DNA of 60,370 nt, filler included, from Hausera hauseri (GCA_046269625.1; 11 parts of 11 records of this genome joined end to end with filler, not necessarily neighbours in it), one strand, 5' to 3'. Positions 5,111-43,439 are shown, counted from the first letter of the whole stretch. The notes: generated from the letters alone by a model not told the origin. Translations and numbers: made by a program.

Positions 5111-5250
5111 AGGCTGTAATTTATGGGTTAAAAACATTGTTTATAAAAATGGAAATAAAAGTGAGAAGCTTGCAACAATATTTTCAAAACTCTTCAAGCC
5201 TTAGGATCACATATGAGATGTAAACAAAAAAATAGTAGAGTTAAAAGATT

Positions 5251-5544: not shown

Positions 5545-5690
5545 GCTGCGTAACAGCATCAGGCGCAGCATCATCATGCGCAGCAGCGTCAGGCGCAGCA
5601 GTATCAGGCGCAGCAGCAGCAGGCGCAGCAGCATCATGCGCAGAAGTATCAGGCGCAGCAGCATTAGGCCCGGTCACATCAGGCACAGTG
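5545..5690 (+). repeat. Degenerate 15-bp GCA-rich tandem repeat (catcaggcgcagcag), Ala/Ser/Gly-rich if translated
   Basis: Directly visible; lies just upstream of the PolB gene. Confidence 0.8.
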
Positions 5691-5759
5691 GCTCCATCAA
5701 AAAGCCAAAGACAGCGACCAGTTGATGCGGCAGCATGAAAGAGAAAATGCCGTAGATAT

Positions 5760-9348: not shown

Positions 9349-9553
9349 AAACACCTACATTTGGGAAACCCCTAAAATAGGAAAGTATATCGCATCCATT
9401 TTTCAGTCGAAAAGAAAGGGTAAGTTAGCCGTACCAGTGGACAAACAAATGAANNNNNNNNNNNNNNNNNNNNNNNNNNNNNNNNNNNNNNNNNNNNTTA
9501 ATTAATTAANNNNNNNNNNNNNNNNNNNNNNNNNNNNNNNNNNNNNNNNNNNN

Positions 9554-19014: not shown

Positions 19015-19610
19015 AATGATAGAAATAATAATCGAAACGGTCATGGCGATAAGAATTGGAATGATAATTGTGGAAGACATGATAGACGATTTAATGGAAA
19101 TAGAAATTATGAAAATAGGAATAGTAATAACGACTACAGGAATAGCCGAAATAATAACTACGCTAGAAATCAAAATACGAATAAGTAGAATACGGATAAA
19201 GGTTTTAACTATGGGAATCGTCACGAGGATAATCGAAATAATAACAATCGGCAAAATGTAGATATTACGCAAGGGTTGTCGAACCAGGTCAATAGAAGCG
19301 CAAATAGGTCCAAGTCACCTGTGAATGAAGACGATCGGTAAAGAGTCGGCAGAAATGAAAATTTAGTTTGTTTTACCTGCAGTATAGAAGAACACATTGC
19401 ACGGTCATGTCCAAACCCGCGTAGCGTTTCATTTACTGAACCTAACAAGACTAGTATGATTAAAGTGAAGAAAAACTTGGAAGCAAAGTATGGTGATCGT
19501 GGAGACACGAGTATTATTATCGACATACAAGATCTGCGGATATTTCTAGATGCTCAGCCTGCGTCATATAACTCACAGAATTTGATGGCTAAAAATACGC
19601 AAATAAATTA
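19015..19610 (+). pseudogene. gag: Gag C-terminal region: Asn/Arg-rich tract and CCHC zinc knuckle
   Basis: The frame from 19015 reads NDRNNNRNGHG... then CFTCSIEEHIARSC (19369-19410, CX2CX4HX4C), with two internal stops. It is not in the ORF track. Confidence 0.75.
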
Positions 19611-19622
19611 AGGCTATTAGAA

Positions 19623-22600
19623 GTGCATCATGGGTTAGCAGAACCAAAAACTGAATATGAGTATGCGATAGCACCCAAGCGAATTGATATGACATGGAAA
19701 AAGAGTGTTCCGACGATCGATAGAATAGCAGATAAACCAGGAACTTCGACGGAAATCGACTTAGATGCAGAGCCTGAGTTTGCGGTTGGAAAAGTAGACA
19801 TTACCGAAGATAAGGTAACAAAAAAGGAATTTATGGAGCTATTAATACTTAAAATTATTAAAAATAGAGGCCGTAACCCTTCATTGAGAACGAACCGTAA
19901 AAGTCGCTCACTTTCGCAAATACCTAAAGAGAAAATAGAAGAAACGAAAGATACGAACATCGCTGTAGAAAGCGACGTACAGCCTAGCTTAAATACACCA
20001 GAAATTGGTCCATTTACACCTATCGAGGTAAATGAATCTGTAGGGTCGGTTAACGATATTGACGAGATCTGCCCACTTTCCACTAGTGAGGAAGAAATCG
20101 AAAATATTGATGATTTTTATCCACAAAATGGAAAATCCGACGTTCGTGGGAAACGCCAATGAATTAAAGTAAATGAGAATTTGATGCCACGATCCAGGAA
20201 CACTACAGTGGAATTTAGAAAGACTTAAGAAGATTAGCGAACAAGTATATATCCGGTAAAGAGCAACCACTGGCTGCGAGGTTATATAAAAGTTTAAAAT
20301 TATGCATTGAAGGAAAGCTCGATGAAGCAATCGACTTAGGACAACCTGAAGATGTACCAACCGGAACGTTAATAAAAAGGAAACGTGAATTAGAATCATG
20401 GATTAAAAGTGAAGTCGAATTCTCGGAAGGATGGAGTAAAAGCGAAAATAGTGTTGATTTGAAAGTAGTCAAGGCTCAGACGTTATTATCTACACTAGAA
20501 ACTAATCCCAAAATTAAGACAGTAGTCCGTAATTTAGAACGCATGATGGATGATATTCAATGTGCAATGATTAATCGACTTAGGGAAAAACCTGTTAGCA
20601 ATGAAAGTGATATCGATTTAGAAATATTAGGCATAGACCCAGTAGACATTACTCCTTTAATGGAAGTGATAAAAATTGCCTTCATTGTGCCTAGGCAATA
20701 TACAAATTTAGAGTATCGTATTAAAATTAAGAAAGAAAAAAGATCACAAATTGTTAGCTTTAGAAATCGTATTATGTTCATGTATAATGAATAAACCAAA
20801 TATGTAATAAAAGCTTGTATCATAGAATTCGACGAATATAAGGATGAATTCCATTATATCAGCCGAATTATGAATTTCATAAAAGGTCCAAATGATGTAT
20901 TAAGGGATGCTTATAAAATGCTAGACAAGGCCATATTGGCAAAACCTGAAATGGCGAATCAACTGCATGAATGGTCCGAATTAGTAGCGAGAGTAAGTAA
21001 ATTAGTAGAAGACCGTAAGACAGAATTTCCAGAAAGCGAGCCTTCTATAAAGAAACAATTAGAAGAAAGTGAAAGGAACTTAGATACAATCCCAGCGGAA
21101 ATAGATATACGGACTCAATTCGAAGCATTACGACAATTGGAAGAGATATATAAAATGATCGAAGTAACAAACTTCACAGAAAAGCAGAATATGACTTGCA
21201 ATTTTCACCCAAGTTTACGGAATGTCCGCCTAGAGGAAATCCAACATTTAACAGCTAAATCTACCGACGAAATTTCCATCCAGGATATCGAAACTTTAGA
21301 TATTTGCACAGAACGTAAAACGGTTACAGAGGAAGCAATGAGATTCATACATAAACCACAGAAATGTATGACCGGAACAAATCAGAACTGTCATACCGAG
21401 TTGACAAAAATAAGAAATGACCCTCAGCTTAGTTTTGAAGAAGTTAAGTTCGTAAAGAAATTGTTCTATGTAATAGATCCCGACTCAAAAATTGTTAATG
21501 AGATGTACGAGTTAGCTTTTCTTTTAGTAGAAATGACATAAATTAGTGATGAGAAAATGAGACAATTGATGCCTCAAATACGACAGGCCGAAGAAACGTG
21601 CAGTAAAACCAAACAAAGAGCGACAATGTTAGACGAATTAATCAGAGCTCAAATTTATAGAAACAAATATGGTTTTACCGAGTCCGAAATCAAAAATAAG
21701 CGTGAATTTGTATAAATATGGAAAAGAAATGTAATTATGGAACTAACTGTTTATCACCAGAAGGGACTCATCCATCCTAATGAATTAGGTGAACTATTGA
21801 ATATGATTCAGTATGCCTATGGAAACGGAATGGGTTTCCGAACTACACAGATGAATGAAATACAACCAAGATTGAAAGAAATAAGAGAAAACGTGTGCAG
21901 ACTCAACACAATGTTGACAGACTGTGGGCTTCCAGACGTTGGAAATGAACCGGAATGGGACGCGTACTTCGATGCAATAACGGCCGAGAATCCTGTGACT
22001 CCGGTACAGCTAAATGAATTAGAAACGTGTCCCCAGGACAGTAGATTCAATGTGGAGATGCTGTTGGATCCAGCGCTAACTGAAAGGTATTTAATTGAAC
22101 TAATTATTGTGAGCACTGCCGAAAGTAAATTAAGACAACTCATTCCGACTTTGACTAAATTATCTAGTGAAAACACAATTTATAGCGCGGTGCCAAAACT
22201 TTTAATACGGAAATACGCTAAGATCGTGAGAGCTAAACCCGAAGTAACGATGAAAGTAAAAATATCATGCGAGTAAATGGATGAAAAAAAGTGAGTTAAC
22301 CACGTATTCATGCGTGAGAAATGTAAGAGAACGATTAATAAACAATGGTGGAACGAAAGAACTAAAGTATAGATTTTACTTCAGAGGTAGAATACTGGAT
22401 GATCTAGAACAGTCAATAGACATCGGGATCACCCCCAACGAAACAAATCGTATCGTGGTAATAGTATCCAATGAACAGAATAAAGAAGAAGCCACTCGTA
22501 AGGCCAAGACAAAACAATGTGTAGGACAAATGATGGGAGCCCGGGATGATGCAGTGTATTTTGAATATTTACAAACGGATGAAGACAAGGAACAATACGA

Positions 22601-23160
22601 CAAGAATTTAGTAACCCTGAGTGAAACAATAACCAATGTGCCAAGACAAAAACATTCAGTCGGCAGACCTAAGAAAACAAGAGAAGAAGCAGACTATAAA
22701 TGGAGAATTGATTAGAGAATTGATACAGATGTCGATTCCTACCTTCAGCACGGACAATGAAGAATTGAGTGAATTAATGAAGAATTTAATACGAATTGTA
22801 AATTATTCAAGCCTCCGAGGTGATACATTAGACGATAAAGAGAGGGCGATATTCAATGCAGAGAGGATGATGAGAAGTTCAAGTTTTAAATTATCAAAAA
22901 GTAACTTAACTGATGAATCAGTGATCGAAAAGATCATGGTGGAACACACCACTAAAGAATTAAGAAAAGTAGTATTGTACTGAGCTATCAAAATAAAACC
23001 CGGTTGAGAGAATGAAATTAATAGAGCTACCAGCTTAGCACGAAGAGCGGCAAGAAAGCTACCCTGCAAAGTAAATTGATAGAGACTATTCGATAAAGAA
23101 GAAGACAAACGGTCCAGAAATAGCAATCGATTCGAAGATATGCTCGTAATCTGACAATGA
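19623..23160 (+). pseudogene. Large decayed ORF(s): acidic region, helical repeats, ubiquitin-like domain (~22249-22465), AT-hook-like GRPKK (~22662)
   Basis: MKVKIS..ELTTYSCVRNVRERL...KYRFYFRGRILDDLEQSIDIGITPNETNRIVV follows the ubiquitin pattern. A homologous region is at 33222-34118. Confidence 0.6.
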
Positions 23161-23209
23161 CGCATAATATTAACCGGAAAAGCGAATCTAATTGATTAAT
23201 TAGCTTACT

Positions 23210-25616
23210 TTGATGATTCTAATAAAGCATATAAGTGCTGCTACCGTCTACGATTGCGATAAGTTTAAGCTAGGACAAAAATATTCTCTAATGGATTTAG
23301 AAGTATGTGAGGACGCCAGACCATACAAATTGGAAACAAGGAAGAAAAGTTACTTCCTATATCAACAGCAAGAATTGATATCGTTGGATGGAATGGAATG
23401 TACGTTTAGACAGTCCCGTAGCATTTTCCACTGTGGATTAATGCACGGACATTCTTCAATAATCAGGCCAATGACTCCTCTAATTCCGATGAATTTGGAA
23501 CGCCAGCATTGTAAGCAGGCCAGGGAAACCGGAAGAGTAAAAGGGGATAGCATGGAACTAGAGATGTAACCAGGGAAGATAATCAGAGCATATAAAGTAG
23601 TGGTTGGAAGGTTAGACATGCATAACGGACATTGTAATGGAGCAGAATACGACACTGGAAAGTGGTTAGAATCAAATGTATTGGTCGTAGATTTCTATGA
23701 ATCGGAGATGTACAAAAAGTAATGTTCCATAGTGTCACCAAATTATATACCGAGAATCAGAAATGCCATTTACAAGATGGAACCTGTGCCTTCAGAAGTT
23801 CTGTTATAATATAGGAACCTCCCTTGGGAAGAAACTGTAATTTTACCAAAATCAAGGAATTGAAATTTAACGAAACCACCGGAAAACGATATGTAGATAA
23901 ATCCGATACCAACTCAAGGACACGCGAGGATGTAGCAGAACACCCTACACCTACTATATTGATCGCCGACCAGCATGGACTAAAATTTATTAAGAAAGAA
24001 ATGATCTCTCGTTGCAAAGTGGTAATGTTCGCTACAAATTATGAAGCATTTTTCGTTACAGAGATTAATATAAATGCGAAAACTTACGAGCTAGAAACAC
24101 AGGACATTCGGATTGAATATTACTTGAAAAACCGAGGCGATTACTTTTATTACAAAGGACAAGTTGGAATAACCGAATTATATCACAGAATGATAATGAA
24201 TGATTGTAAATTGGATATGAAAATCATGAGAACAAAATTAGCTCTTATCTGTGCTAATCCTGAGTTAGCCTCTCCAATAATTCCTATGAGAAAAGGAATT
24301 TTCGGTCGAGTTACCGGCGAAGTCCTATTGACTTATGAATGTAAGAAAAGAGACGTACCAATCAACATTGAAAAAAAACATTGCATGTAGGAACTCCCCA
24401 TTATTTACCAGAATACTCCGCATTTAGCCACGCCGCTTACTAGAGTGTTATTAGACAATGCAACTGAACCAAAAAATTTTAAAGACTGTAAAGCAAGTTT
24501 AAGAGAACCGATTTTTAGACGTAGCGAAACAGATAGGGTTAGTTTGCCTAATGGAGGTATTACTGTCGCTCCAAATAAATTAACAAAAACAAATCTCGCA
24601 AAAGGAATTACCGACGATAAGTCTCAAGACACCTCGTCAAAAGGCATATATATGCCTAAGGAAATTGAAGCCTTCAGACAATTTCTCGCTTTTCCACGAC
24701 AGCGGACACACGAATTAAATCGAGCCATGGCCTCTGTAGTAGATGATATTCAACATCAAGCTTAGTGGGAATCATTGCTTGGCGTAAATCATTACCAACG
24801 AGTAACCACAGAAATACTCTACAAAATTTTGGGAAGATTTTTAATTTTTGGACAAGCCGCACCTGGATTCTTAGCGATATATTTTCTAATACAAATGATT
24901 AAGGCCGTCATCTAATCAGTAATAATATGGGATTTTCGTGTAAAATACTGACTGCAATCATAACACCTTTGGCAAATTCTTAAAAGCATATGAAGAGAAT
25001 AGACGGAAATCGGACATAGACCGTCATGTCGGTTACTATAATCGTAAACGAAAAGGAAAACCTATGTTTCTGTACAAGCAAAAATTCACAATACCTAATA
25101 CGCGAAGAAATAATTCAGATAATGACGAGCCTAAGGGAAGAGAAGTACTTCCGAGAACAGATAGACACAAGACGTATTCTGTCATAAAGCACCATTGCCT
25201 GTGCTACCCCTACTGCTCCAGTCTATAAAGACTGTGACAAACGATCAATGAGCTCATATCAGACAGAAATCTATAAAAGAACAATTAGTTTAGAAGACCA
25301 CTACGACGGAACGAAACGTTATGGAGTCCTACGGAAAATGTGTTATCGACAGCCCGTGGATGACCCCAGAATACTGTATCCTCCGAGAGAACCTCGGAAT
25401 ATAGAGACTAGATCGCCTGTCTGGGAAAATCCAAGGTTAGAAACCTTCCGGAATATAGAACCACACACAAACAATCGAAAACCATTAATTAGTATACATG
25501 AAACTGAAGAATTGAAGATCGAAAATAATGAATTATATCCAAACGGAGAATTAAGAATATTATCTGAAAACATAGTATTCTCCCCAGACATTCGAATTAA
25601 CGGACATTCGAATTAG
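23210..25616 (+). pseudogene. env: Chuvirus/herpes gB-like (class III) envelope glycoprotein, plus tail and linker leading toward the deleted protease
   Basis: Signal-like segment, then VYDC...YSLMDLEVC, SIFHCG, RVTGEVLLTYECKK, C..ELPIIY, GIY, and TM region KILGRFLIFGQAAPGFLAIYFLIQMIKAVI. Confidence 0.85.
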
Positions 25617-25786
25617 CACTATCATTAATTGCTTCTTACATTCCAAGGACACAAACTCAATGGTGAGACGACGAAACTATGCTAGGAGATGTATATGGAA
25701 TTCGGAAGAGGGAATAAAAGCCGAAAGTTATTAAAAAGGGAAAAGAAACCAACGGCCGAAGAGATCCAGAAACGAAAAGATACTAT

Positions 25787-26989
25787 TTGTTACAATCAAT
25801 GAAGGTTCATTACTTTTCGCCCGACTCTGAGTGTGTTGGATTTAAAACTTGGAGACCGCATCACGATTTCGCAAGATTTCAAGTTGTACTATGCAATGTG
25901 ACAACAAAAGAAGTAAAAAATTGCGATTTTGAACCCGGAGATTATACCCAGTGTTGCGACATAGATTTTGGATACATTTACATCCTTATTTATCGACTAT
26001 ACTTACCAGACTCATCAGAAGTCTATATCGAAGTAAACCCACAACTTCAGTTGGTCATTCCCACTTGTCCTAGACGATTCGAAGTGAAACCCGAAGAAAT
26101 GCAACAATTCACTGACTCAAATATAAGGCTATTATATGAAAACATGAAAAGGATCTCAGTAAATCAAGGAAAACAATGCATCCAAGTAGATGCTCGAAAA
26201 GGATTAACTTTTAGTCAAGAAATTATTATTGTTTTCGAAGCAGTAAACTGAAAAACTCCAAACATAAAATACTGTTCTGTTCATGCTGGTGTGCAACACC
26301 CATGTAAACCAAGAATTAAAATAAAGTTTGATCTATATGAAGTACGACCGAATGAACCGAGCAAACATTTGTGAACCTATTACCTGAAGAATAGAAAATG
26401 GAAGATTCAAATAGAAACGACAACCGAAAAGCCAACTACTTGAGTTTGTGCCATTACGAGACCCGTTATATCAAACAATGTGCCTAAAAGAGATTTAGAA
26501 AGTATACCTATTAAATATTCAACACATCGATTTAGAATTGTGTTCTTTGTAGAAGAAAAACTAAATTACAATATACACATAAGCTGCCGAACAACGCGTA
26601 ATAATCAAATTGTAACACTACTTAAATACACTTACCAGACAGAATGCAATTTGTTAAAATCACAATCTGATTACATAGTACAAGTATATGCAGCGAATAA
26701 ACAAAACCGAACAATTATATTGCCTACCTTAGACGAAATTCGTGCAGGATCGCATATATACGAAAACATAGACGAGGAAATCACAACTCCAATCACAACA
26801 CAGGCACCAATGGGATTAACCACTTTACCGATCGTATCGATTGTCGTACTATCGACGTTTGTTCTCATTATATTAATTGCGATTTTTCGGTTAGTTGTCA
26901 AAAATTGTCATTCTAAACGTCCTAAAACTACAGAATGGAAACTAGGGAAATTGGAAACCCCTATTGATCAGTATGATAAAATAACCTGA
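25787..26989 (+). pseudogene. Type I membrane protein with fibronectin-III-like ectodomain
   Basis: ORFs 25787 and 26480 share a frame. LKSQSDYIVQVYAAN is an FN3-like strand motif, followed by a Thr-rich stalk, TM IVSIVVLSTFVLIILIAIF and a short basic tail. Confidence 0.6.
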
Positions 26990-27062
26990 CAACTACAGAG
27001 CAGATTATTCTATCATCTGACAAAGAATTTGTTTCATTTTAAGACCATCCTTTGTTGTAAGA

Positions 27063-27094
27063 TTAACCCTTACTGTTTATTTTTTAGACTGATG
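27063..27094 (+). promoter_or_regulatory. Candidate 3' splice acceptor just before the ATG of the accessory ORF
   Basis: ttaac (branch-like), pyrimidine tract, then tttttag (AG at 27086-27087); ATG at 27092. Confidence 0.4.
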
Positions 27095-28548
27095 AGTAAA
27101 GGGAAAGTTATGAAAACGGATACCGGACAGCCTAGGATCGACGGACCGCGATCTATCCTAGAGCGAGAACAATGTAGTATCGTGAAATAGTTAAAACGCC
27201 GACTTAGTATCGACGAGTTCCTGCAGAATTATGCTACCGTTTTCCTTCCCACTTCCAAATCGATATATCGAGAAATTCAGAACGAATTGCATGAGAAAAC
27301 CTTCGTGAAGTATGATCAAACCAGTAAAATTCCTAACAATTTAAAGGGTACAACGGAAGAAAATATGATTGTTTACCTTTACGCCATGAGAAAAGACAAG
27401 GTTGCCCGAGCATACTCACTGAAACAGATGATCACGTACGAATTACATCAGAATATTTATATCTACCTGGAAGGTGGTTAGATATACTATCGGTTCAAAG
27501 ACCAAGAATCGAACACAAACAACGGAACACAATACAGATTTAGTACCCTTAGCTTACGGAGCGAAGATTTACAGCATTATGAACTAGAATTCCGAGTAGC
27601 CGCCCTTCCCTTGAATATAATGTTCGAGGTAACGTACGACGATTACCCCTATATCAAACTGCCACCCTTGAAATTTCATCAGCAGCCGTCAAGCAAGGAC
27701 TTGGACGCATTCTTACAATCTTATAGACTAGTGCAAGACGCCAGAAATACGAGAATCATAGCAATCAATTGCGGAGAAGAAGATGACGCGAAAAGAATTC
27801 CAATGGAAGTTTCAATTCGAGAAACGAACGGAACGGAAGTATAATGTACGATTATTAGCCAGAGAAAACTCGTTCTTGAGACATACTACGATACGACAGC
27901 AATTCGCAAGGAAACACTCTCGAAAGGTAGAGACATCAAACTTGTCCAAGTTGAGTTGGAACAATGTTTACACGGATATATCCTAGTTGGATATAGCATC
28001 GATAAGATTGTCGAACTCTTGGAGATACAGATTTCAAGCATCGTAAGAATGCGGGAAATAGGGACACTTCCAATAGTTGCCGAACAAACTAAGCTGACAT
28101 TGCGAAAAAGAGGTTACTCTATGCCAAAGGTTATGGATGAATACTTCAAGATAATGGTTGATGGTATGAACAGTAAACATGTTAAAATTAACAAATTGTT
28201 GACCGAAAGCCAGCGTACTTAATACTTGCGTGACATTTATGTAACTTTAAAATGGGACCATGAATGGATACCTGATAAACCAGAACAAAATTTGCGAAGT
28301 TCCTCGGAACCAGAAAGTATAAACAAAAGTTATCGAAAACAGTACCGTCAATATTCCCCATGTAGAATCGTTGAACCTATAGGACAGGATGATATAAAGA
28401 TAACCATTAGGAAATCCGATCAACCATGTGTCAATATGCCCAACACCAGTTATGGTTCCCACGTCAAACCAATTCCAGAAATGAACTGTACAATAGACGC
28501 AATAGATACATTTAAAATGCCCCAAATTTCAGTGAAAAAGCAGAAAGC
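27092..28548 (+). pseudogene. Accessory ORF with a DEDDh (REX4/ISG20-like) exonuclease-fold domain
   Basis: ORFs 27287, 27611, 27956 and 28226 are all in frame with ATG 27092. IIAINCG..PMEVSIRETNGTEV..T.ISQR...YDTT.I...VQVELEQCLHGYILVGYSI...MREI follows the REX4 pattern. Confidence 0.6.
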
Positions 28549-28739
28549 NNNNNNNNNNNNNNNNNNNNNNNNNNNNNNNNNNNNNNNNNNNNTTAATTAA
28601 TTAANNNNNNNNNNNNNNNNNNNNNNNNNNNNNNNNNNNNNNNNNNNNCTGGCGATTCAAACAAAGAAGAAGCTGGGTCAGAATTGATATGCGTAATCTA
28701 ACGAACCCGTTAGATACGGACAACCTCAGCTGACGATTA

Positions 28740-30170
28740 ATGTCAGGGATTGCAGCATACTCAACCCTAATTAAAAAGATAACCAAACAACAGCGGGTTA
28801 CCTTGAACTCCAGAGATAATAGTAGCGAAACCACAACGATTACCTCCATAAGTTGTCTGATAACCGTTGTGTTGTGTTTAAGCATAGTGATAAATGACGT
28901 ATTGACTTTCATTTTTGCAGCCTCAGCAGAAACTTTCCATCAGATTCAGACAATCAGTCGATCCAAACAATGGTACAGTAATGTGAAAAACCATATAATA
29001 AATGCCAATTAATCCAACCAATACCATGTGTTTCACAAAGACTATATGATCAGCCTTAATTACCCCCAGACTCAGAATATTCCAAATAATTTGAAAAGAT
29101 ATAGTATGGCTAACCAATCCCTCGGCGTAATGCAGATTACCAAGGCCACCTCATTTCTTTTAACCGACATAATAATTCTGCTAGACCGATTCCATTCCAT
29201 GAACCTGTATGGTATTGTTTACCAACTCCAAGTAAAAACGACAGACAGAAAAACATCTTTTAGAGGAGATTTAATCAATTTTGATCCGGAGCATGGTCTT
29301 GCTTTTGACCACTCATTTCTTAAAAACAATATATGCAAAGTACGTTCCTGCACTAATGGCGTAATACTGGCATTAGAAATAATCAAAAACGAAAAGTTTT
29401 ACTCAAGCCTTCTAGAAGGAAGATGTTTTAACCTTCCAGAGCTGGATTACGTCAAATATAAAAACATTCCTTTCCGGAGATTGGATAAAATTACAGATAA
29501 AGATATGGTCATAGCAGCCGTCAATTTGGCCTATGACCAGTGGAATCAGCTTCAACCTATTGAAGCCTTAGTTATGGCCCTGAATGGAGACACCCTACTT
29601 TATGGAATAATTACTCCGAGGCAGCGTATTAATAACTTTGATACGCATATAACAGGCCTCACCGAATCTAACATAAACAACCAAATGGATCCAATGGATT
29701 TTTACCGAAAAGCGGCCGAAGGTATAACTGACAAGATTGTAATCGGAGCCGACGTGATTGAAATGGTTATAAACCATTTCAAGTGTCCAATCGGACGGAT
29801 AGCTGGAGTTAGCGATATTTTATATCACGAGAATGTTATCCGTTGGTATCAATTAGCAACCAACACCTATAAAGAGTTAGCTCGGAGGTTTTATGATACG
29901 AAGGGCTTCTCTCTTCAAAGCACTGCCCTAGCTCAGCGTTATTAGTCGATGTACAATCAAATGAAATGGACAGACGAGTACATTACTCAGAGTTTGACCT
30001 CCGATACGGTGCGAACAGCACCAAAGGCGTCTCAATGTGAAAGGAAGCGAGAAGTCCAGTTGGACGAAACAGTCATATTGGACGATGAAATCTACAAACC
30101 CGAGGCAATTCGACATAAATCCAGAACAACGGACAAGTATATCCACATGCCTTTAGTGCTCGATCAATGA
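28740..30170 (+). pseudogene. Divergent homolog of the DEDDh-fold accessory ORF
   Basis: One frame with two stops. YPQTQNIPNNLK matches YDQTSKIPNNLK. MALNGDTLLYGIITPRQRINNFDTHITGLTESNI, KIVIG and VSDI follow the DEDDh fold. Confidence 0.65.
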
Positions 30171-30680
30171 TAAATTCGGGGCAATTTCTTTCAACCCCTG
30201 TCGAATTGTTAAAGACTTTGAATAGACCTCCGGTAATGCTTGACTTTTTTTTCCGGGTACTACTATCTCTGATTGTGGGGGTATTATAATATCTTTTGTC
30301 AGTGAGACCTTTTCTCTGCATCGATCTTCATCAAATGTCTTTAACTGACTTGTTCTTACGTCTATGTATGCGTTTTCTAATTGGTTTAATACATCACACC
30401 CAATTAAGATTTCATTAGTCAAATTGTCGGCTATGCTTATAGTGCGTTGCAGAGTTTGTTTGCCGATTTTAATTTTTGCGTCCAGAACCATCTTGATTTC
30501 TTCTTCTGTACCGAACGCTCCTACGTTTATTAATGTAGTAGTCAGTCTTCATAACTTCCTTTTCAACTCTTTGGGTAATTGACTTCTTCCCATTATTGTT
30601 GTTGTAGATCCAGTGTCTAATAAAGCCGTCATAGGGTATCCATTTACCTCTATTTCTATTTCTGGCCTTATAGGTGATTG
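30153..30680 (-). pseudogene. pol: Retropepsin aspartic protease and start of the following spacer; pol truncated
   Basis: IRPEIEIEVNGYPMTALLDTGSTTTI, ILIGCDVL, IIIPPQSEIVV. Confidence 0.9.
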
Positions 30681-32917
30681 TTCGCGTTTTTTATCATCAG
30701 TTCTGCACGTCGACTCACGCTGATAAGGTCTTACATCTTCCTCAAAATTTTGTTGCATCTGGTGTACTTGATGCATTGGGTATAATCCTGTATGTACCAC
30801 ATATCGTGGAGCTGAAGGATTTACTAAAAGTTGCTCGTTATATAGTTGCCTATGATATTTATCTACGGGATCTAGATGGGGTAAATCCATCACGAGCTTA
30901 TGCCTATATTTAGGCTTTCGTGTCTTCAACACTAGTTGTTTAATGCCAGGTACTTGTTTGTATTTCGTTTTTATCTTCACTTGATCATAGTTGGTATTAT
31001 CATTGTCAGGTATACTATACAGAGATTCTTTCGTGTCTCTCTTTTGTAATGTCTTTTTCTTCCATCGTGTATCATGCTTTGCTAGAAAACAGCTTGCTAC
31101 GACCGGTATTACAGCTATTAAGATCTTCCAGGGGCATTCTACTGCTGCGTGTATCCCATATGCTTTACCTAATGCCGTAAATACTGTCCGAATGGAGCTA
31201 ATAATAAAATATATAGCTAGAAAATCAGAAGCTGCTTGTCCGCAATATAGGAACTTTCCCCATATCTTTTCCATAACGTTTTTTGTTACCTTCTTTAGGT
31301 AATCATTACCTATAGGGTTCTCCCATTGTGGTGATCCTTCACCGTCTCACATTACTCTCCGTGTTAGGTCGGTTGTTACTCGTTGTCTTTGTTGCTGGAA
31401 CAACAGCATCCGTCGATAGTCGTCTAAATTTTGTTGGGTATAATTCCTCCCTGTGATATTCTTGTTAATGGTTCGAACTTCTGATTCCTTTGTAAGTTAA
31501 TCAAACTCAATGTCTCCGGTTTGGACACTGGTTCTCTTTTCGGCATTCTTATCGATTTATCGTTATCAATCTTGAACATCGGTGGCATATTAAAAGTACA
31601 GTTGTATAATGGAGTGGGCTTTACATTAATATCTAGCAATATTCTCGTCACTGGCATAACATATCGGGCTTCTGAGTGATAAACGACAGGTAGTTCCATT
31701 GCACATTTGTCTGTTGGTCTAATTGATACTTCCACCTTTTTACATTCTATTGTTATCAACACGTCGCCCATCACTCTTCCAATAACTCCGTCGCCGAAGG
31801 GCAATACTGGCGCTACCATATCTGGGTTTGTTATCACCAATGCCATTTTACTACGAATTATTTCATAGTTCTGCTTACATTCGTTCATTATTATTTCCCG
31901 ATATAAACCCGTAATTTCTTTCCTTACGTAATTAATCAGAAAATCGATCTTATTATTGAAATATTGTGTTAACTTGATATCTTTTTTATCTATTTTAGTT
32001 TTTGCTCCGAGTATTTCTTTCCTCGATAAGAAAATACCTTTATAGTTGGTTCTCGATATTTCTTCACTGCACTTGTTTACTATTCCGGTGATTTTGAATC
32101 GCGTCATTTCTTCTGGGTTTTCTGAATATACAATTGTGGCCACTTCCGTCATCTTGACTTTCTTTGTTCCTTCTTTATATGTCGCTGTCTCTTTTTCCGC
32201 TATTTTTTCTACCGTTTTGTTAAACTTCCCTTTCTTTAACAGTGTCAACTGGCATTTACTTGCTAGAGTCTCCTATGTCATTTTTGACTCTTCTGTATCA
32301 CATTCGCCATTATCGTATTCACAGTCACTCAGTCGTCATTAACTTTGTTTGCAAATTGAATAATCCTTCATATTCTTTTAATTGTATCTTATAATCTTCT
32401 ATAGCCACTGTTCTTGGTGCAATGGTGCCTCCGACATCATAATCCACTCCTTTACAGGTGCCTTCCATCGTTTTATCTATCCTTCCTGCCCTAAAAATCC
32501 TTGTGTACTTTATTCTGTTCCTTACTGTCGGTATGTGTGCGTTTTGTATAGTTATGATGCCGATCTTAGAAGCATCCTGACATTACGCTCGTGATATTAT
32601 TATTGGCTCAAAACGTGTTGTAGGCTCAATTATGGCCGAGTTTCCTGAATAGTAAATTAAACGGAAAAAAACGATCTTTTCACATAACATTCCCTAATTT
32701 TCGTTTTTATGAATTCAGATTCTTGGTACACCAAATGTGTAAGACCACTAGTAGTTGTTAACTGTTCTGGATCAGCTTCTGGGCATTTTTCTAAGTCAAC
32801 TGGAGAATACTTTTGTCCTTTACTGGGTTTAGAACAATCATGCGCCACTATACCTACGGCTTTCTGCATCAGCAATGATGTTATTCATAGAATTTTAAGA
32901 ATCTCCATTACCGACAT
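30681..32917 (-). pseudogene. env: Chuvirus/gB-like envelope glycoprotein copy 2; TM and tail are in the same ORF as the protease
   Basis: MSVMEILKIL.ITSLLMQKAVGIVAHDC, RVMGDVLITIECKKVEV, CAMELPVVY, KIWGKFLYCGQAASDFLAIYFII. ORF 30549-31274 runs from the TM to DTGS without a stop. Confidence 0.87.
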
Positions 32918-32929
32918 GTCTGTTATGCC

Positions 32930-34135
32930 TTATCTAGAAGTGATTGGTTGTGTCCCAACTGGTTTATCTATTACTCTTTCTTGTTCTTCTGTCCTGGTTA
33001 TGTTAGTCGTCAAGATATTCAGCCATCCACCCCTACATTGAGCCTAATTTCCCAGCGTATCTTTCAAAATCTTCACGACTATCTTTATGTATCGTTCAAT
33101 TTCGTGTAAATTTTGGGTCTGATGATTAATTACTATTATCTTATATAGCAAATAAGATATAGCCGTTTGAGCTTTCTCTCAAATAATTCCTGTTTACGAA
33201 TATCTTTTCCAAAATATCCAACTAATGTAATTTATTTACTCGTTCTTCCTCTAAATTCTCATAAAATTGTCTACTTATTCGCAGCATGCTATTTCGTAAT
33301 GTAGTGAATACTTTATCTGGAATTATTACTTGCATGTCAAATGAGGCAAATGATGTATGTAGCTTAGCCAATAACGTTCTTAGTAAGGGATCTGCGTTTA
33401 CCGCTTCGGGGGTATCGTTTGGTCCTGCTAGTAATAAACGTCTTACTATTTCGTCATTTCTATTTTTCCTGTTGCGAATGTCACTTATTGTCGTTCCTCT
33501 CGGCCTACCTGTTCTCGTGGCTTCCGTCTGAACCGTGACGTCTTGTGTATCACCCGTATCCTGCGGTTCAATTTCTCTTACGACATTTTCCACTGTTGCT
33601 TGTGCTCTTGCTTCTGGATATACTTCAGTTATATTTACCGGATTATAGTTCTCACTTCTGCATCAAATTCTCAGCAATTTGCCGTAACTATATAGTGTCC
33701 TTCCGCAATAACTTAATTCATAAAGACTGCCTTGATAAAATGGTTCCAGCTCCTCTATCTTTTCTCGTAAGGTTTGTATGTCACAGGTTTCGTTCATCCT
33801 GATGACCCTCATATCTTGATTTCCTTCTCTCATCGTTATCCTGATAGCTTTATTTCTTCTTTTTTTTTCTTCAGCAGCTTTGGCTAACACAGTTCTGGCT
33901 ATTTCTCTCACAGGACTGATAACTTGGGCTAATAATACCAACTGAGGTAAAATTTCATTCATTCTTTCTACCGTTACATTACTGCTGAATATCTTCAATA
34001 TCGTAGTAGTTGTTTTATCTACATTAACTGTATTATTACTATCAATGGACATTACAGCTTGTATAACATCATCTTCTTCATCTAAGTCTACACCGGGATT
34101 CTTTATTACTTGGTCCAATATCGTGGCATCGAAAA
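32930..34135 (-). pseudogene. Pre-env ORF with ubiquitin-like domain and AT-hook-like GRPRG
   Basis: IRITMREGNQDMRVIRMNETCDIQTLREKIEEL....LYELSYCGRTL..YGKL, then RTGRPRG. Same order as in copy 1. Confidence 0.6.
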
Positions 34136-34235
34136 NNNNNNNNNNNNNNNNNNNNNNNNNNNNNNNNNNNNNNNNNNNNTTAATTAATTAANNNNNNNNN
34201 NNNNNNNNNNNNNNNNNNNNNNNNNNNNNNNNNNN

Positions 34236-37200: not shown

Positions 37201-38453
37201 TTGAATCGAAAAAAATTTTGGTTTGACCCCGTTTCGGACATCTGCATATTTGCATTCACTTGAATGGGTTGAGTCTGAAAACATTTGTGGCTGACACGGT
37301 TCCGGATAACTGCATATTCGGAGTCACCTCAATGATTTGAGTGAGAAAATAATTTTGGACTGACACGGTTCGGGACACCTGCGTATTAGGACTCACCGCA
37401 ATGAGTTGAGTCGGAAAATATTCAAGAGTGACCCAGTTCCGGACACCTGCATAATCGGAGTCACCGAAATGAGTTAAATCTGAAGAAATTTGGGACTGAC
37501 ACAGTTCCGGAAACCTGCATATTCAGACTCACAACAATGAACTGCGTCGGAAAAAAATTTGGAGTGACACAGTTTCGGACACCTGCATATTCGGAATCAC
37601 CTCATTGATTTGAGTCTGAAAAAGTTTTTGACTGACACGGTTCCGGACAGCTGCTTATTTGCAATCACCGCAATGAGTTGATGGGGAAAAGACTTTGGAC
37701 TTACCCAGTTCCGGACACCTGCATATTTGCATTCACTTGAATGGGTTGAGTCTGAAAACATTTGTTGCTGACACGGTTTCGGATAACTGCATATTCGGAG
37801 TCACCTCAATGATTTGAGTCTGAGAAAGTTTTTAACTGACCCGGTTCCGAACACCTGCGTATTTGGACTCACCGCAATGAGTTGAGTGGGAAAAAATTTT
37901 AGACCAACTCAGTTTGGGACGCCTCCATATTTGGAGTTACAGCAATGAGTTGAATCGGAAGAAATTTGGGACTGACACAGATCCGGCCACCTGCATCATC
38001 GGAATCACCGAAATTAGATGCGTCGGAAAAATTTTTGGATTTGCACGATTCCGGACACCTGCGTGTTAGGACTCACCGCAGTGAGTTGAGGAGGAAAAAA
38101 TTTTAGACCAACTCAGTTTCGGACTCCTGCATATTTGGAATCACCTCAGTGATTTGAGTCTGAAACGATTTTGAATGACCTGGTTCCGGACACCTGCATA
38201 TTAGGACTCACCGCAATGAACTGCCTCGGTAGAAACATTTGGACTGACCCAGTTTCAGACACCTGCATATTTGGACTCACGTCAATGAGGTGAGTCGAAA
38301 AAAATTTTGGAATGACCCGGTTCCGGACACCTGCGAATTTGGACTCACCTCAATGATTTGAGTGAGAAAAAAATTTTGGACTGACACGGTTCGGGACACC
38401 TGCGTATTAGGACTCACCGCAATGAGTTGAGTCGGAAAATATTCAAGAGTGAC
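34236..38453. repeat. Satellite, 67-68-bp unit, about 62 diverged copies
   Basis: Consensus ggactgacccagttccggacacctgcatattcggactcaccgcaatgagttgagtcggaaaaaatttt. Unit starts at 37017, 37084 and 37152. Confidence 0.97.
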
Positions 38454-38553
38454 NNNNNNNNNNNNNNNNNNNNNNNNNNNNNNNNNNNNNNNNNNNNTTA
38501 ATTAATTAANNNNNNNNNNNNNNNNNNNNNNNNNNNNNNNNNNNNNNNNNNNN

Positions 38554-41480
38554 ACGCGGTAGTTTTTAATCGTTTGATTTCGAAGATTTTAGAAATTTTG
38601 TCAAATAACTCACTCGTAAAATTTCTTCCTCTATCGATTAATATGTGATCGGGCGGTCTATATCTGCAGATGATTTTCCTCACTACTGCTTCTGCTAGAG
38701 TTTCCACCTTTTGATCAATTAGTGCGATTAATTCCACAAAGTGTGTTAAACGATCTACAAATGTCAAAATATATTTATTATTTTTATGAGTTGTAGGTAA
38801 AGGTCCTACTATATCCATATACATAGCTTGCATAGGTCTGTCTGGTACGTCGATCGGTTTTAATTCTGCTATATAGTTTTTTACTTTTCTTTGTTTTGTT
38901 GCACAGACTTCACAAGCGTCCGCCCAATTTTTTACATCGATATAAACGCTTGGCCAGTAGTACTTATTCAATATTCTTTCTAACGTTTTCTTTCACGACA
39001 TATGTCTAGCTAAATGTGAATCGCGTTCAGTCATTAATACTTCCGTTCGTAATCCCTTTGGAATAACTACCAGTTTCCGTCCCTTCCGTTCATAAGATAA
39101 TATATTATCTTGATTCGATGTATATTTGTGCCCGTGTCTCTGTACGTGTTTCTTTAGCTGACGTCCTTTCGGTATTTCATCTTGCTCGGCAAATTTGACT
39201 ATTTGTTGGACAACTTTATCTTTAGCTTGTTCTGAAGCAACCTTGATCGTCTTATTTGGTGTTAAGGTTTGTTGTCACTCGACTAATTCTTGAAGCTGAG
39301 CCTTCTTCATGGTCGTATTTGTGCTTGTTTTTGTTTTAAGTCTTGATAAAGCGTTTGCGCCTACACGTTTACTTCCGGGTTTATATTGAAGTTTGATATT
39401 GTATCGCGAAATTTCCTCAATCCATCGATTTAGTCTACATGTCGGATTATTAACCAAGCCCTTTAGCGTGGTAACAGCCTTATGGTCGGTAGCTATAATA
39501 ATTTTCTGCCCATAAACGTAAATGTTGAAATGCCTTAAGGCTTCTTTTACAGCTAGCGTTTCTAGTTCAGTTACTGAATAATTTTTCTCGGCCTTCTTGA
39601 ACGCCCATCCTCCATATGCAATCGGGTGCTGCAATTCTTCGTCTTCTCGTTTTTGGGCCAATTCGTAACCAATTCCTTCTTTACCAGCCTCTGTTTTAAT
39701 TTTGAATGGTAAGTTGAAATCGGGGTATTTTAACACTGGTTCACCTGTTAGAATTTTCTTCATTTCATCGAACGCCTTCTGTTCTATATCGGTCCATTTC
39801 CATTTGATAACTTTTTTCAATAGCCGATATAATGGCCCATTTATTTTCGAGTTGTCTGGTAAGTAAGTGGCATAATACCCACATAAGCCTAACCAATGCC
39901 TTAGTTCTTTCTGATTCTGGGGTTCCATACAATCCAATATTTTGCTTAATAAAGATTTATCTGGTTTTGACCCTCCTTCTCCGACTATATGTCCCAGATA
40001 AGATACAGCGTTTTGTGCCCATTTACATTTTTTCGCATATAGTTTCAACTCTGCCTGTTCCAACCGCATGAGAGTGTCTTTGATGTCCTTTAGGTGTTCC
40101 TCTTTTGTTCTTGATGCTATCATTACATCGTCTAAATACGCGAACGCATGATCGAGTCCCATTAGCATTTTATTCATCATTCTTGTGAAAATAGCTGGGC
40201 CGGTTGTTATACCAAACGGCATGACGTTAAATTCGTAAACTCCGTCGTGTGTCTTGAATGCCGTTTTATAACGGTCATCCTCTTCAATTTCTACCTACCA
40301 ATATACTGATTGCAAATTTAATGTGGTAAACCACTTTGCTTCTGATAATCAGTCTAAAACTTCTTTTACTGACCGTAGTGGAAACGAGTCTTTCATCATC
40401 TGCGTGTTCAGAGCTCTGTAATCTATACAGAAGCGATGTTTTGTGGTACCCTTTTTCTTGACTATGAGTAGTAGTGAGTACGAAGACAGATAGCTTGGTC
40501 GTATTATATCACCCTTTAACATATGTTCAACCTCTGTAGTTATTTCGGGCCTTAATAAATGGAGCGATGGGTACCATTTAGGCATCTTTTGCTTTTCCAA
40601 GTCAATTTCGTCATTAGAGCCAGGTTTCTCTGCCTATATCTTCTTCATTTTTGGCGATAATCGAATTATATTTGCATAATAATTTGTAAAATTGACAATA
40701 TACTTCTGGTGAAAATTTTTTCTCAACATAAGATGGAAACTCGGCACATTTATAAGGTTTTTCGTCGATTGTTATTCCCGATACTTTGTAAGTATGACCC
40801 AGTGTAGTGTTGACATACAACTTTAAGGAAGTTGGTGCATTATTAACTAATCTGACTGGTACTCTTCCTGTCGTTACTCTTGTTAAAATGTTACTGAGTA
40901 TAATGTTTGAGTAAACGTCTTCTTGTGGCTCAAAATATGCTGGCTGATCGTTTTCTTCTCGGATCTGGACATAAATTAGGATTTCGGTTCTGGGTGGAAT
41001 AGTTTCATCGAACGGGATCTACACTTCTCCTAGTTTCCTTTCTTTCATTGTTTTAATTCCTTTCACTGGTCCGAGTTCGAGTAGTTTTTCATTCTGTAAG
41101 TTTATTACAGTATTGGGAAACTGTTTCAGTATATCGCAACCTAACACTACATCGCCGGTTAGTTGATCCATTATAGTAAACTCGTGTTGTCGCGTTTGAC
41201 CTATTAATTGGACTAGGGGGCTCCATTTAAATGTCAGTTTGGATTCTTGCCCGAAGGCTCCTATGCTGCTTGAATCCGATGGCGATGCTGGCTGCAGTTG
41301 TTTTCGTAACGTCGGCGGTATTGATTCTAATTTTACAAACGATTTCTCTGATCCGGTGTCGATTAAGGCATAGACTTCCCAAGCTTCGATGTAATTTTCG
41401 TGAAGGGTCTCCCTTCCATAACTGTTCCGTAACAACTTGACACGTCTTTTGGTCGTTTAATTGAAGAAATTTTATGTCCG
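38554..41480 (-). pseudogene. pol: Ty3/Gypsy pol (protease - RT - RNase H - integrase)
   Basis: ALIDTGS, RFCIDYRALN, MPFGITTGPAIF, AYLDD, PIAYG...AEKNYSVTELE, TDHK, YYWP..CEVC, MDIVGPLP, DRGRNFTS. Confidence 0.96.
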
Positions 41481-43439
41481 CTTATCGTTATTTCTGGTGA
41501 TGAAATGATGTTCTCGGTCAACTGTTTCAGTTCTTCGTTAGGGTAAAAGTCGTTGATTGCTATGCGACCTGCATTGTTTCTAATTAATGGTTCTTGTATT
41601 ATTTGGTTTTGGTGCGATTTTATTCCTTATGTTCCCCAAACTGTTGATCTTGTCTCTATATTACGAGCTATTCTTGGCGAATACAATATCCTATGGTTAT
41701 CTTCCGCTCGTCGTTGATTAGTAATCTGCATTTTCTTCAATACTCCGTATTGTTTTGTTCCTTCATAAGGGTCCTCATAGCTAAAAGGTCTTAGACAGAA
41801 ATCCCATTTGTGTAACACCATAGATGTTCTTTCACAATCTTCGTATATTGGGGCCATTGGCAGCATGATGGGCAAGGGTACCTTGACTACTGAATACATT
41901 TTATGTCTATTTTATTTTAGGTTTGTTTCTCCTGCCTTAGGCTCGTCATCATCGGAGTCATTTCTTCGTGTTACTAATTTCTTAATTTTACGTTTTAATA
42001 GAAATGTGGGTCTTGCTAGTCGTTTATAATTATAATAGCCGACTAAGCTTTCAACGTCATTTTTCCATCGGTTTTTTTCGCATGCTTTAAGCATTTTGCC
42101 GAACGGTGTCATGATTGTGGTTAAGATTTTTCATGGAAATCCTGTTAACGTGAATATTTCGTAGCCATTTATAACCGCTGGGATTACCGCTTTTACTAGT
42201 TGTTCCAAGAAATAGATGGCTAAAAATCCAGATGCGGCTTGTCCAAAAATTAAAAATCTTCCCCATATTTTGTAGAGTATTTCGGTAGTTACCCGTTGGT
42301 AATGGTTTGCACCCAACAGGGATTCACATTTAGCCTGGTAGCGGGTGTCACCTACTACTGATGGCATAGCTCGGTTTAATTCGTGTGTTCGCTGCCGAGG
42401 AAAAGCGAGAAATTGCTGAAAGGCTTCGATTTCTTTGGGCCTGTAAATACCTTTTTGGGATGTATCTTGAAACTTGTCATCCGCAATTCCTTTTGCTAAA
42501 TCAGTTCCAGTTAGTTTTCTGGGAATGATAGTGATACCTCCATTGGGTAAGCTAATCCATTCCGTAAGCTATTCCATTCCGTTGCAGCTCTTTATAATTG
42601 TGGGCTGAGTCGCATTATCCAACAACACTCTGGTGAGGGGCATAGCTAGACGTGGAGTATTCTGGTAAATTACAGGGAGTTCATGCATACATCGTTTCTC
42701 TTCGACGTTGATTGGCACATCTCTTTTCTCGCATTCATATGTGAGTAGAACCTCGCCAGTAATTCGATAAAAAATTCCTTCTCTCATAGAAATAATTGGT
42801 GAGGCTAACTCAGGATTCGCATAAATAAGAGATAATTTTGTCCCCATAATTTCCGTATCCAGTTGGCAATCGTTAGTTATTATTTTGTGGTATAGTTCGG
42901 CTATTCTGACTTGTCCTTTATAACAGAAATAATCGTATCGGTTTTTCAGATAATCTTCGATTCGAATGTCTTGCGTTTATCTCAGTTTCTGCGACGAAGA
43001 AGGCTTTATAGTTAGTGGTGAACATTACTACTTCACAACATGAAATGATTTCTTTTTTTATGAATTTCAATCCGCGTTGATCAGAGATTAATATCGTAGG
43101 TGTATCATGCTCTGATACGTTTTCACGTGCTCTTGAACTGATGTCGGATTTGTTTACGTATTGTTTCCCGGCAGCTTCATTAAATTTTAATTCCTTAATC
43201 TTAATAAAATTACAGCCTTTTCCAGCAGGCGGTTCCCATATGACGACAGAACTTCTAAAGGCACAGGTTTAATCCTGTATATGACATTTTTGGTTCTCGG
43301 TATATAGTTTAGTGACGCTATGGAACATCACTTTCTGGATTTGCATTTTCGATTCGTAAAAGTCTACTACCACTATGTTTGCTTCCAGTCATTTTCCAGT
43401 GTCGTATTCTGCTCCACTGCAATGCCCTTTATTCATATC
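41481..43439 (-). pseudogene. env: Chuvirus/gB-like envelope copy 3 (5'-truncated by contig end) with tail and linker, directly upstream of pol
   Basis: ANPELASPII, RITGEVLLTYECEKRDVP, KIWGRFLIFGQAASGFLAIYFL. ORFs 42847, 42367, 42112 and 41899 share one frame. Confidence 0.88.

What the first reader, a model, noticed from the sequence alone, without database searches (positions are those of the whole stretch)
19015..43439. Candidate new complex invertebrate 'retrovirus': gag - Ubl/AT-hook ORF - gB/chuvirus-like env - pol - FN3 membrane protein - exonuclease-fold ORF
Seen: three separate contigs carry homologous parts that overlap into one architecture. Copy 1 (19015-28548) has gag knuckle, Ubl ORF, env, FN3-TM and DEDDh-fold ORF. 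Copy 2 (28649-34135) has Ubl ORF, env-PR and DEDDh-fold ORF. Copy 3 (38554-43439) has env followed by Ty3/Gypsy pol. Copies 1 and 3 are close relatives and copy 2 is distant, so the layout is conserved across two subfamilies. Known: gB-like or chuvirus-like envelopes occur in some invertebrate LTR elements (Ascaris Tas, mosquito BEL/Pao elements), and env is normally 3' of pol. Inference: an element of more than 13 kb with several accessory genes, an organisation I do not recognise. No LTRs are visible and the full map is a composite.
Basis: partly seen in the sequence, partly recalled or inferred. Interest (0 to 1): 0.92.

Follow-up and report, generated by a model that had tools for sequence, protein, structure and literature searches.

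The report
Decayed Burro-like enveloped retroelement copies
These are three broken copies of a retrovirus-like jumping gene, likely from a flatworm, whose envelope-in-the-middle layout is already published, but which also carries a second surface protein and a nuclease-like gene that has likely lost its cutting activity in this branch.

Summary
The composite map is real. Intact relatives carry it on single contigs: L001 has one 3,700-aa ORF (Gag, ubiquitin-like, gB-type env, protease, RT, RNase H, integrase, then a second membrane protein with FN3 repeats), followed by a same-strand DEDDh exonuclease ORF; L002 matches from the ubiquitin-like domain on. The window's copies are decayed. The core layout is published: planarian Burro/GYPSM1 (PMC6431247) and flatworm GAG-ENV-POL errantiviruses (PMC13524379). 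This scan also found the family, with the FN3 protein and exonuclease, on other DNA. Not found in print in my searches: the FN3 membrane protein and the ISG20-like exonuclease ORF. New here: both window subfamilies and two unbroken homologues lack the catalytic acids that three other relatives keep, so this branch likely encodes a pseudo-nuclease, RING-fused in one homologue. Likely mechanism: one membrane-threaded polyprotein delivering a fusogen plus a separate attachment protein. No LTR seen, host inferred, function untested.

The parts
19015..19450 (+). Copy 1: end of Gag (N/R-rich spacer, one degenerate CCHC knuckle); capsid part cut off by the contig start
   Evidence: Pfam zf-CCHC E 1.4e-4; weak tblastn to Gag of P0062, P0081, P0084
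19593..22050 (+). Copy 1: about 800 codons of unassigned, broken coding sequence between Gag and the ubiquitin-like domain
   Evidence: Long frames with few stops (3 in 685 codons); no Pfam, PDB or family-profile hit
22055..22500 (+). Copy 1: helical lead-in plus ubiquitin-like domain, split over two frames
   Evidence: Family profile E 5.2e-6 and 1.7e-9; Pfam ubiquitin E 0.036
22662..22676 (+). Copy 1: AT-hook-like GRP motif
   Evidence: Sequence; a like motif precedes env in 4 of 14 relatives by pattern search
23204..24950 (+). Copy 1: gB/chuvirus-type env, broken by stops and frameshifts
   Evidence: PF24664 in three pieces; 31-32% to P0062 env
25587..25615 (.). Copy 1: junction where protease to integrase is missing; exact 13-bp direct repeat across it
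   Evidence: Repeat 25587-25599 / 25603-25615; contigs of runs X1 and X2 stop at 25606-25607 or begin at 25613 with unmatched letters
25613..26989 (+). Copy 1: second membrane protein, broken by stops: ectodomain, FN3 domain (26500-26745), S/T stalk, TM segment (26831-26887), short tail
   Evidence: Fold and fold search; family repeat profile 11.1 bits vs at most 6.7 in 415 scored shuffles; hydropathy
27017..28548 (+). Copy 1: ORF with conserved N-terminal domain and DEDDh-fold domain lacking the catalytic acids; cut by contig end
   Evidence: 41% to P0058, E 1e-93; motif alignment
28836..28892 (+). Copy 2: hydrophobic stretch after a T/S-rich run, possibly the TM segment of the second membrane protein
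   Evidence: Hydropathy only; no significant match
29013..30164 (+). Copy 2: DEDDh-fold ORF lacking the catalytic acids, on the strand opposite to env-PR
   Evidence: Atlas RNase_T 0.89; tblastn to L001 and L002 exonuclease ORFs E 6e-9, 7e-11
30050..30240 (.). Copy 2: likely inversion break
   Evidence: AT skew changes sign near 30200; homology on each strand ends here
30156..32875 (-). Copy 2: env followed in frame by linker and aspartic protease
   Evidence: PF24664 and RVP in ORF 30552-31346; tblastn to P0062
32978..34133 (-). Copy 2: ubiquitin-like domain, GRP motif (33509), helical domain ending in a GGW motif (Bcl-2-like by motif only)
   Evidence: Ubl profile E 7.9e-8; helical-domain profile E 2.5e-4; no Bcl-2 hit
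38554..43439 (-). Copy 3: env, linker, PR, RT, RNase H, integrase (cut by contig end)
   Evidence: Pfam; 41% to P0062 pol
8170..9453 (+). Fourth partial copy, outside the finding: exonuclease-like ORF, joined at 8170 to a protein-primed polymerase B fragment
   Evidence: 86% DNA identity to 27783-28548; tail matches P0058 further on, 0 of 300 shuffles in two frames

Best explanation
The three contigs hold decayed, rearranged copies of a Ty3/Gypsy (Metaviridae) element with env in front of pol, likely a compact relative of the planarian Burro elements, whose single polyprotein is predicted to thread the membrane twice and to supply both a class III fusion protein and a likely separate FN3 attachment protein. 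Shown in intact relatives: one ORF of 2,600-4,060 aa with Gag, ubiquitin-like domain(s), hydrophobic signal, env, TM, one to three protease domains, RT, RNase H, integrase, second signal, FN3-repeat ectodomain, TM and tail; then a separate same-strand DEDDh ORF. Inferred: signal peptidase and the element's protease cut the chain; Gag and Pol stay cytosolic, with Pol first held between two membrane anchors; both glycoproteins enter a budding particle, the FN3 protein binding the target cell and the gB-like protein fusing. Inferred: the ISG20-like ORF trims or masks RNA; in the window's branch it has lost its catalytic acids and likely works as an RNA-binding adaptor, joined to a RING ligase domain in P0058. 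Inferred: copy 1 lost protease to integrase by a deletion repaired with a short templated repeat; copy 2 was inverted and truncated.
For: Top RT hit P0007 and its cluster mate P0062 (3,735 aa) hold the whole order in one chain. 16 of 120 listed long proteins carry PF24664 with pol; in 14 of 20 mapped proteins the P0062-type env lies before PR and RT. 15 of 16 family proteins end in a TM segment. L001 and L002 join the polyprotein to the exonuclease ORF on one strand. Window pol: the first 13 of 180 blastp rows are family members, and an RT-RH-IN tree joins copy 3 to the family at SH-aLRT 97 (22 of 24 rows kept). Exonuclease ORF of L002 matches ISG20L2 and ISG20, E 3e-8 and 4e-6. D-x-E, D, H, D are kept in 3 of 8 aligned sequences (L001, L002, P0060); the first motif reads N in place of D with no E in copy 1, copy 2, P0058 and P0059, and is cut off in the fourth copy. 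RING in P0058, E 2.6e-7. Diverged contigs of run X1 cover 30 of 30 bins of copy 1, so the accessory parts are repeated DNA. Six Schmidtea env rows of PMC13524379 supplement 2 share motifs with the window's env by eye.
Against: No window contig links pol to the FN3 or exonuclease ORF. Copy 3 sits on a long branch outside the tight family clade, and the RT-RH-only tree left it unresolved (SH-aLRT 87, open fork, careful search unfinished). Copy 1's membrane protein shows no pairwise similarity to P0062's (422 of 500 shuffles as high) and the whole-ectodomain profile missed it; only the repeat-level profile and the fold link them. The fold matches have E above 1e-3. No LTR, primer site or target duplication was seen in the window, L001 or L002. 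No Burro or Schmidtea sequence was in any alignment or tree. Bcl-2-like and dUTPase-like domains were not confirmed. About 800 codons of copy 1 match nothing. Entry, budding and nuclease functions are untested.
Confidence: 0.82

Rival explanations
1. Same element, other role for the FN3 protein: it is a host-modulating receptor mimic or adhesion protein on the producing cell, not an attachment protein on a particle; the element spreads mainly inside genomes or by cell contact.
For: Burro cargo is described as apoptosis- and ubiquitin-related host tinkering (PMC6431247). The ectodomain is very variable in length (110-399 aa by automatic cut) and absent in P0083.
Against: It is co-translated one-to-one with env in 15 of 16 family proteins. 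Class III fusogens of herpesviruses need partner glycoproteins (own knowledge).
Confidence: 0.3
2. The missing catalytic residues are damage that arose after insertion; the exonuclease was active in this branch too.
For: The window copies carry many stops (10 in 978 codons at 25613-28546). Only two unbroken homologues were found.
Against: P0058 and P0059 are stop-free and show the same N at the first catalytic position as copies 1 and 2; P0058 also lacks the later H and D. Copies 1 and 2 are only 16% identical in the core, so shared random damage is unlikely.
Confidence: 0.1
3. Copy 1 is a chimera: env from this element joined to a membrane gene and a nuclease gene from the host or from another mobile element such as a Polinton.
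For: There is a real junction near 25610. The fourth copy is fused to a polymerase B fragment.
Against: L001 and L002 carry homologous genes in the same order behind pol; copy 2 has the nuclease ORF beside env-PR too; the polymerase B fusion begins in mid-gene at 8170.
Confidence: 0.05
4. The intact subfamily of copy 2 has the exonuclease as an antisense gene, with no inversion; or the flip is an assembly error.
For: No other copy of this subfamily was seen; I did not lay reads on copy 2.
Against: Both genes are truncated at the meeting point; A-rich sense-strand skew flips there; the gene is on the sense strand in copy 1, L001 and L002.
Confidence: 0.12

Closest known systems
Burro / GYPSM1 giant gypsy-like elements of Schmidtea mediterranea and Dugesia (Jurka 2007 and Grohme 2018, not read, as described in PMC6431247 section 7)
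   Same: One polyprotein with Gag, ubiquitin/SUMO-like motif, mononegavirus-like env in frame, then PR, RT, RNase H, IN; ankyrin repeats in one relative (P0081); decayed copies reported in a third species.
   Different: Burro is over 30 kb with 4,900-5,100 aa ORFs and BIR, MATH, Smc, BCL2 cargo; relatives here are 2,600-4,060 aa. The section read mentions no FN3 membrane protein after integrase and no exonuclease ORF. Figure 2A was not seen.
GAG-ENV-POL HSV/gB-type errantiviruses of Platyhelminthes (Smed_errantivirus_1-6, C1a), Nematoda and Bryozoa (PMC13524379)
   Same: gB-type env in front of Ty3/Gypsy pol; env motifs and spacing look alike by eye for the six Schmidtea rows, not for the ten bryozoan rows seen.
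   Different: The paper's main text has no occurrence of 'exonuclease', 'fibronectin', 'polyprotein' or 'fused'. Its elements are intact; these are decayed and 31-47% identical to relatives in env.
Vesta and Juno LTR elements of bdelloid rotifers with DEDDy ORF3 (PMC5408684, passages)
   Same: A DnaQ-like exonuclease ORF downstream of pol in an LTR retrotransposon.
   Different: There it is RNase D-like DEDDy and takes the place of env; here it is ISG20-like DEDDh, sits beside env and a second membrane protein, and lacks catalytic acids in this branch.
ISG20 / ISG20L2 exonucleases (PDB 1wlj, 7yw5)
   Same: Sequence match of the L002 ORF and of the family profile.
   Different: Extra N-terminal domain of about 170 aa, mobile-element context, catalytic loss and RING fusion in one branch.

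Membership tests
Metaviridae (Ty3/Gypsy) | pol order PR-RT-RNase H-IN with Gypsy-type domains | tested here: met
   Copy 3
Metaviridae (Ty3/Gypsy) | LTRs, primer-binding site, target-site duplication | not testable with these tools
   All copies are cut by contig ends; no genome held; no long direct repeat in L001 or L002
GAG-ENV-POL gB-type errantiviruses (PMC13524379) | gB/chuvirus-type env upstream of pol, downstream of gag | tested here: met
   PF24664 before PR in copies 2 and 3, after the Gag knuckle in copy 1; whole order in P0062 and L001
GAG-ENV-POL gB-type errantiviruses (PMC13524379) | env of the Platyhelminthes C1a group | tested here: inconclusive
   By-eye motif match to six Schmidtea rows; the paper's sequences could not be entered into a tool
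GAG-ENV-POL gB-type errantiviruses (PMC13524379) | intact ORFs, recent multicopy spread | tested here: not met
   Stops, frameshifts, deletion, inversion; the paper uses this as an inclusion filter, not as a lineage mark
Burro / GYPSM1 | env in frame between gag and pol in one polyprotein | tested here: met
   Whole in relatives; in the window only env-to-PR is in frame (copy 2), the rest is too broken to test
Burro / GYPSM1 | ubiquitin/SUMO-like motif before env | tested here: met
Burro / GYPSM1 | BCL2-like domain between Ubl and env | tested here: inconclusive
   Helical domain with GGW motif in copy 2 and relatives; no Pfam or PDB Bcl-2 hit; profile missed copy 1
Burro / GYPSM1 | dUTPase-like domain between PR and RT | tested here: inconclusive
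   A beta-rich stretch is there (40617-41018) but has no Pfam hit
Burro / GYPSM1 | giant size (over 30 kb) with BIR, MATH, Smc cargo | tested here: not met
   No such hits in window pieces; coding span of L001 is 13.4 kb. So: Burro-like, not Burro proper
Burro / GYPSM1 | pol clusters with named Burro elements | not testable with these tools
   No named Burro sequence was returned by any search
DEDDh exonuclease (active) | D-x-E, D, H, D catalytic residues | tested here: not met
   Absent in copies 1 and 2 and P0058; present in L001, L002, P0060
Fibronectin type III domain | seven-stranded FN3 beta-sandwich | tested here: met
   Model with seven core strands, pLDDT 75; listed fold matches are FN3 domains, TM about 0.55-0.6, E 2e-3 to 1e-2

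The most novel reading that the evidence does not exclude
Flatworm env-in-the-middle Metaviridae are true complex retrovirus-like viruses with a two-component entry system (class III fusogen plus a dedicated FN3 attachment protein, both cut from the Gag-Pol chain), and one deep branch has turned its ISG20-like nuclease into an RNA-binding pseudo-nuclease-RING ligase that destroys host silencing or antiviral proteins, a functional parallel of Vif/Vpx-type accessory genes outside Retroviridae.
Probability: 0.25. Interest if true: 0.8.

Novelty: new variant of a known kind. Interest (0 to 1): 0.45.

Why it matters
If the inferred roles hold, invertebrate Gypsy elements reached the complexity of vertebrate complex retroviruses on their own: separate attachment and fusion proteins, and counter-defence genes. 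The pairs of active and catalytically dead nuclease genes make the question of what retroelement-borne DnaQ-like exonucleases do directly testable. The window itself adds only fossils of a divergent branch; intact relatives such as L001 are the better study objects.

Tried and rejected
No whole genome is held. Env search among 640-2,000 aa proteins: 0 of 1,427 candidates; the relatives are longer than that range. Viral contigs: no relative of P0062 or P0058; the exonuclease alignment had no stretch conserved enough to scan with. Single-sequence fold of the copy 2 exonuclease ORF failed, pLDDT 34.5, not used. PDB sequence searches with P0004 and P0003: nothing. Alignment A3 with full polyproteins was scattered and not used. 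FN3 profile against PDB sequences: best E 0.29, contactin FN3 at 0.65, not significant. Bcl-2 search returned only ETV6 fusion constructs, taken as chance. PML_C, Amdo_NSP and aldo-keto Pfam hits are below cut-off and rejected. Pairwise tests of Ubl and helical regions between copies or against P0062 were not significant; only profiles were. No RNA holder listed. Run depth was not used as copy number. The wide structural search was busy and not obtained. Troyka (PMC12440569, abstract only) was not pursued. Sacco 2022 and Grohme 2018 are not held; their text, Repbase entries and Extended Data could already describe the FN3 or exonuclease genes.
Full report
What the window is. Eleven contigs are joined by N spacers. 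The finding covers three of them plus a satellite contig in between. No genome is held, so all context comes from relatives.

Observation. Pfam finds the Monjiviricetes fusion glycoprotein PF24664 in all three copies and protease, RT, RNase H and integrase in copy 3. Copy 2 has the env end and the protease start in one reading frame. Copy 1 begins with a zinc knuckle. A profile built from 12 relatives finds the ubiquitin-like domain in copies 1 and 2, and relatives hit Pfam ubiquitin. The domain at 26500-26745 folds as a seven-stranded sandwich at pLDDT 75 with an 11-row alignment; the listed fold matches are FN3 domains, though none reaches E 1e-3; the Atlas gave FN3 as a lead at 0.86. The last ORF belongs to the DEDDh family: Atlas RNase_T 0.89 for copy 2, and a seven-row profile hits ISG20L2, SDN1, PolC exonuclease, DnaQ and ISG20.

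Copy 2's nuclease ORF lies on the strand opposite to env-PR; homology on both strands ends at 30050-30240 and the A-rich sense skew flips near 30200, so an inversion with loss is likely. Copy 1 runs from the post-env linker straight into the second membrane protein. Its likeness to copy 3 ends shortly before copy 3's protease. In runs X1 and X2, listed contigs stop at 25606-25607 (one with 91 unmatched letters beyond) and 28 plus 3 contigs begin at 25613 with unmatched letters before; none of the 16 listed pieces bridges the place, 632 were not shown. A 13-bp exact repeat spans it. I read this as a deletion of protease to integrase; what was deleted is inferred from relatives, not seen.

Intact relatives settle the map. 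The best RT hit, P0007, carries a membrane protein after integrase; its cluster mate P0062 is one chain of 3,735 aa with Gag, env, proteases, RT, RNase H, integrase and that protein. A search with P0062 listed 120 long proteins, 16 with PF24664. Of 20 proteins mapped, 14 have this env before protease and RT. Of 16 family proteins, 15 end in a TM segment; P0083 does not. A repeated C-x-x-L-x-Y unit was found 17 times in 11 of 12 proteins examined (P0083, P0091, P0092, P0094 left out beforehand); its profile finds window 26537-26686 at E 0.0064 in all six frames, and scores 11.1 bits against at most 6.7 in the 415 of 500 shuffles that were scored. Loci L001 (16.6 kb) and L002 (12.9 kb, 5' end missing) put the polyprotein and a same-strand exonuclease ORF on one contig, and that ORF is homologous to the window's.

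Placement. Copy 3's pol has family members as its first 13 of 180 blastp rows, and a quick RT-RH-IN tree of 22 rows joins it to the family at SH-aLRT 97 on a long branch; an RT-RH tree of 58 rows left it unresolved. Env pieces are 31-51% identical to the relatives. The window therefore holds two divergent branches. Diverged contigs of run X1 cover all 30 bins of copy 1, most under 95% alike, which fits an old, multicopy family. The host is not determined here; a flatworm is likely from the by-eye match to Schmidtea env rows and from unchecked notes on this genome.

The nuclease. L001, L002 and P0060 keep D-x-E, D, H and D. Copy 1, copy 2, P0058 and P0059 have N at the first position and no E; P0058 and both copies also lack the later H and D (P0059 ends before them). 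P0058 and P0059 are stop-free, and copies 1 and 2 are only 16% identical in this core, so the loss is likely old and not mere decay. P0058, the closest homologue (41%), ends in a RING finger; the window's contigs end before that point, though the fourth copy follows P0058 further. P0058's own link to a retroelement was not seen, since its contig could not be fetched.

Mechanism. Shown: domain order and hydrophobic segments. Inferred: two internal signals and two anchors put env and the FN3 ectodomain in the lumen and leave Gag and Pol in the cytosol; processing frees them; the particle carries both glycoproteins, one binding and one fusing. The nuclease would trim or hide RNA; the dead form would act as an RNA-binding adaptor, with a ligase in at least one case. 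None of this was tested. The main rival for the FN3 protein is host modulation.

What is known. PMC6431247 (word-search passages and section 7 whole; figure not seen) describes Burro/GYPSM1: Gag, Ubi/SUMO-like, BCL2-like, env in frame, PR, dUTPase-like, RT. PMC13524379 (abstract; section 5 part 1 of 2; sections 6, 7, 14, 22; passages; rows of supplements 1 and 2) reports GAG-ENV-POL gB-type elements in nematodes, bryozoans and flatworms. PMC5408684 (12 of 25 passages) reports DEDDy ORF3 in rotifer LTR elements. PMC8532177 (passages) shows Burro is PIWI-controlled; PMC11410931 (passages) adds no structure. Sacco 2022, Grohme 2018 and Jurka 2007 were not read. For the FN3 protein and the exonuclease ORF I found no description: eight library searches, with 0 papers for planarian + retrotransposon + envelope + fibronectin type III + integrase and one unread classification paper for the ISG20 query, and zero occurrences of 'fibronectin' in the two key papers. 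Repbase, figures and Extended Data were out of reach and may hold them. Earlier notes of this scan report the same family with both genes in other genomes; a word search for an inactive nuclease with RING found none, and a sequence look-up with P0062 found none.

Verdict. Real, and correctly reconstructed, but a variant of a published kind: Burro-like, not Burro proper. The unreported parts are the FN3 membrane protein, the ISG20-like ORF and its likely catalytically dead, RING-linked form in this branch. Interest 0.45.

Noticed in passing
window 4406-9453, junction at 8170: A protein-primed polymerase B fragment (Pfam DNA_pol_B_2, likely Polinton-type; 83% like 15625-17420) is joined in frame to the middle of this element's exonuclease-like ORF, giving a 337-aa chimeric ORF at 8040-9050.
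   Followed up: partly
P0062, P0081-P0094; L002: 11 of 14 env-bearing polyproteins hold two or three aspartic-protease-like domains, 8 of 14 with one after integrase. Tandem copies could form a single-chain dimer; not tested.
   Followed up: partly
P0081: Ankyrin repeats inserted between the two protease domains.
   Followed up: no
L001 11375-12043 and 13586-13852; L002 12229-12666: Further small same-strand ORFs, coiled-coil-like, beside the exonuclease ORF; no confident Pfam hit.
   Followed up: partly
window 25587-25615: Exact 13-bp direct repeat at the deletion junction, resembling a templated insertion from microhomology-mediated repair (own knowledge).
   Followed up: partly
window 34236-38453: A whole contig is a 68-bp satellite, 62 copies, 74% matches.
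   Followed up: no
window 58072-60368: A different Gypsy pol (RT, RNase H, integrase), 31% identical to copy 3, no env seen.
   Followed up: no
window 6698-7369 and 46482-46910: Two polymerase B fragments, likely decayed Polinton/Maverick elements.
   Followed up: no
P0090: A family member is filed in NCBI under a Flavobacteriaceae metagenome bin, most likely contamination.
   Followed up: no
P0115, P0119: Two other env-before-pol single ORFs with PF24664 fall outside this family and lack the C-terminal membrane protein; P0119 has a dUTPase.
   Followed up: partly
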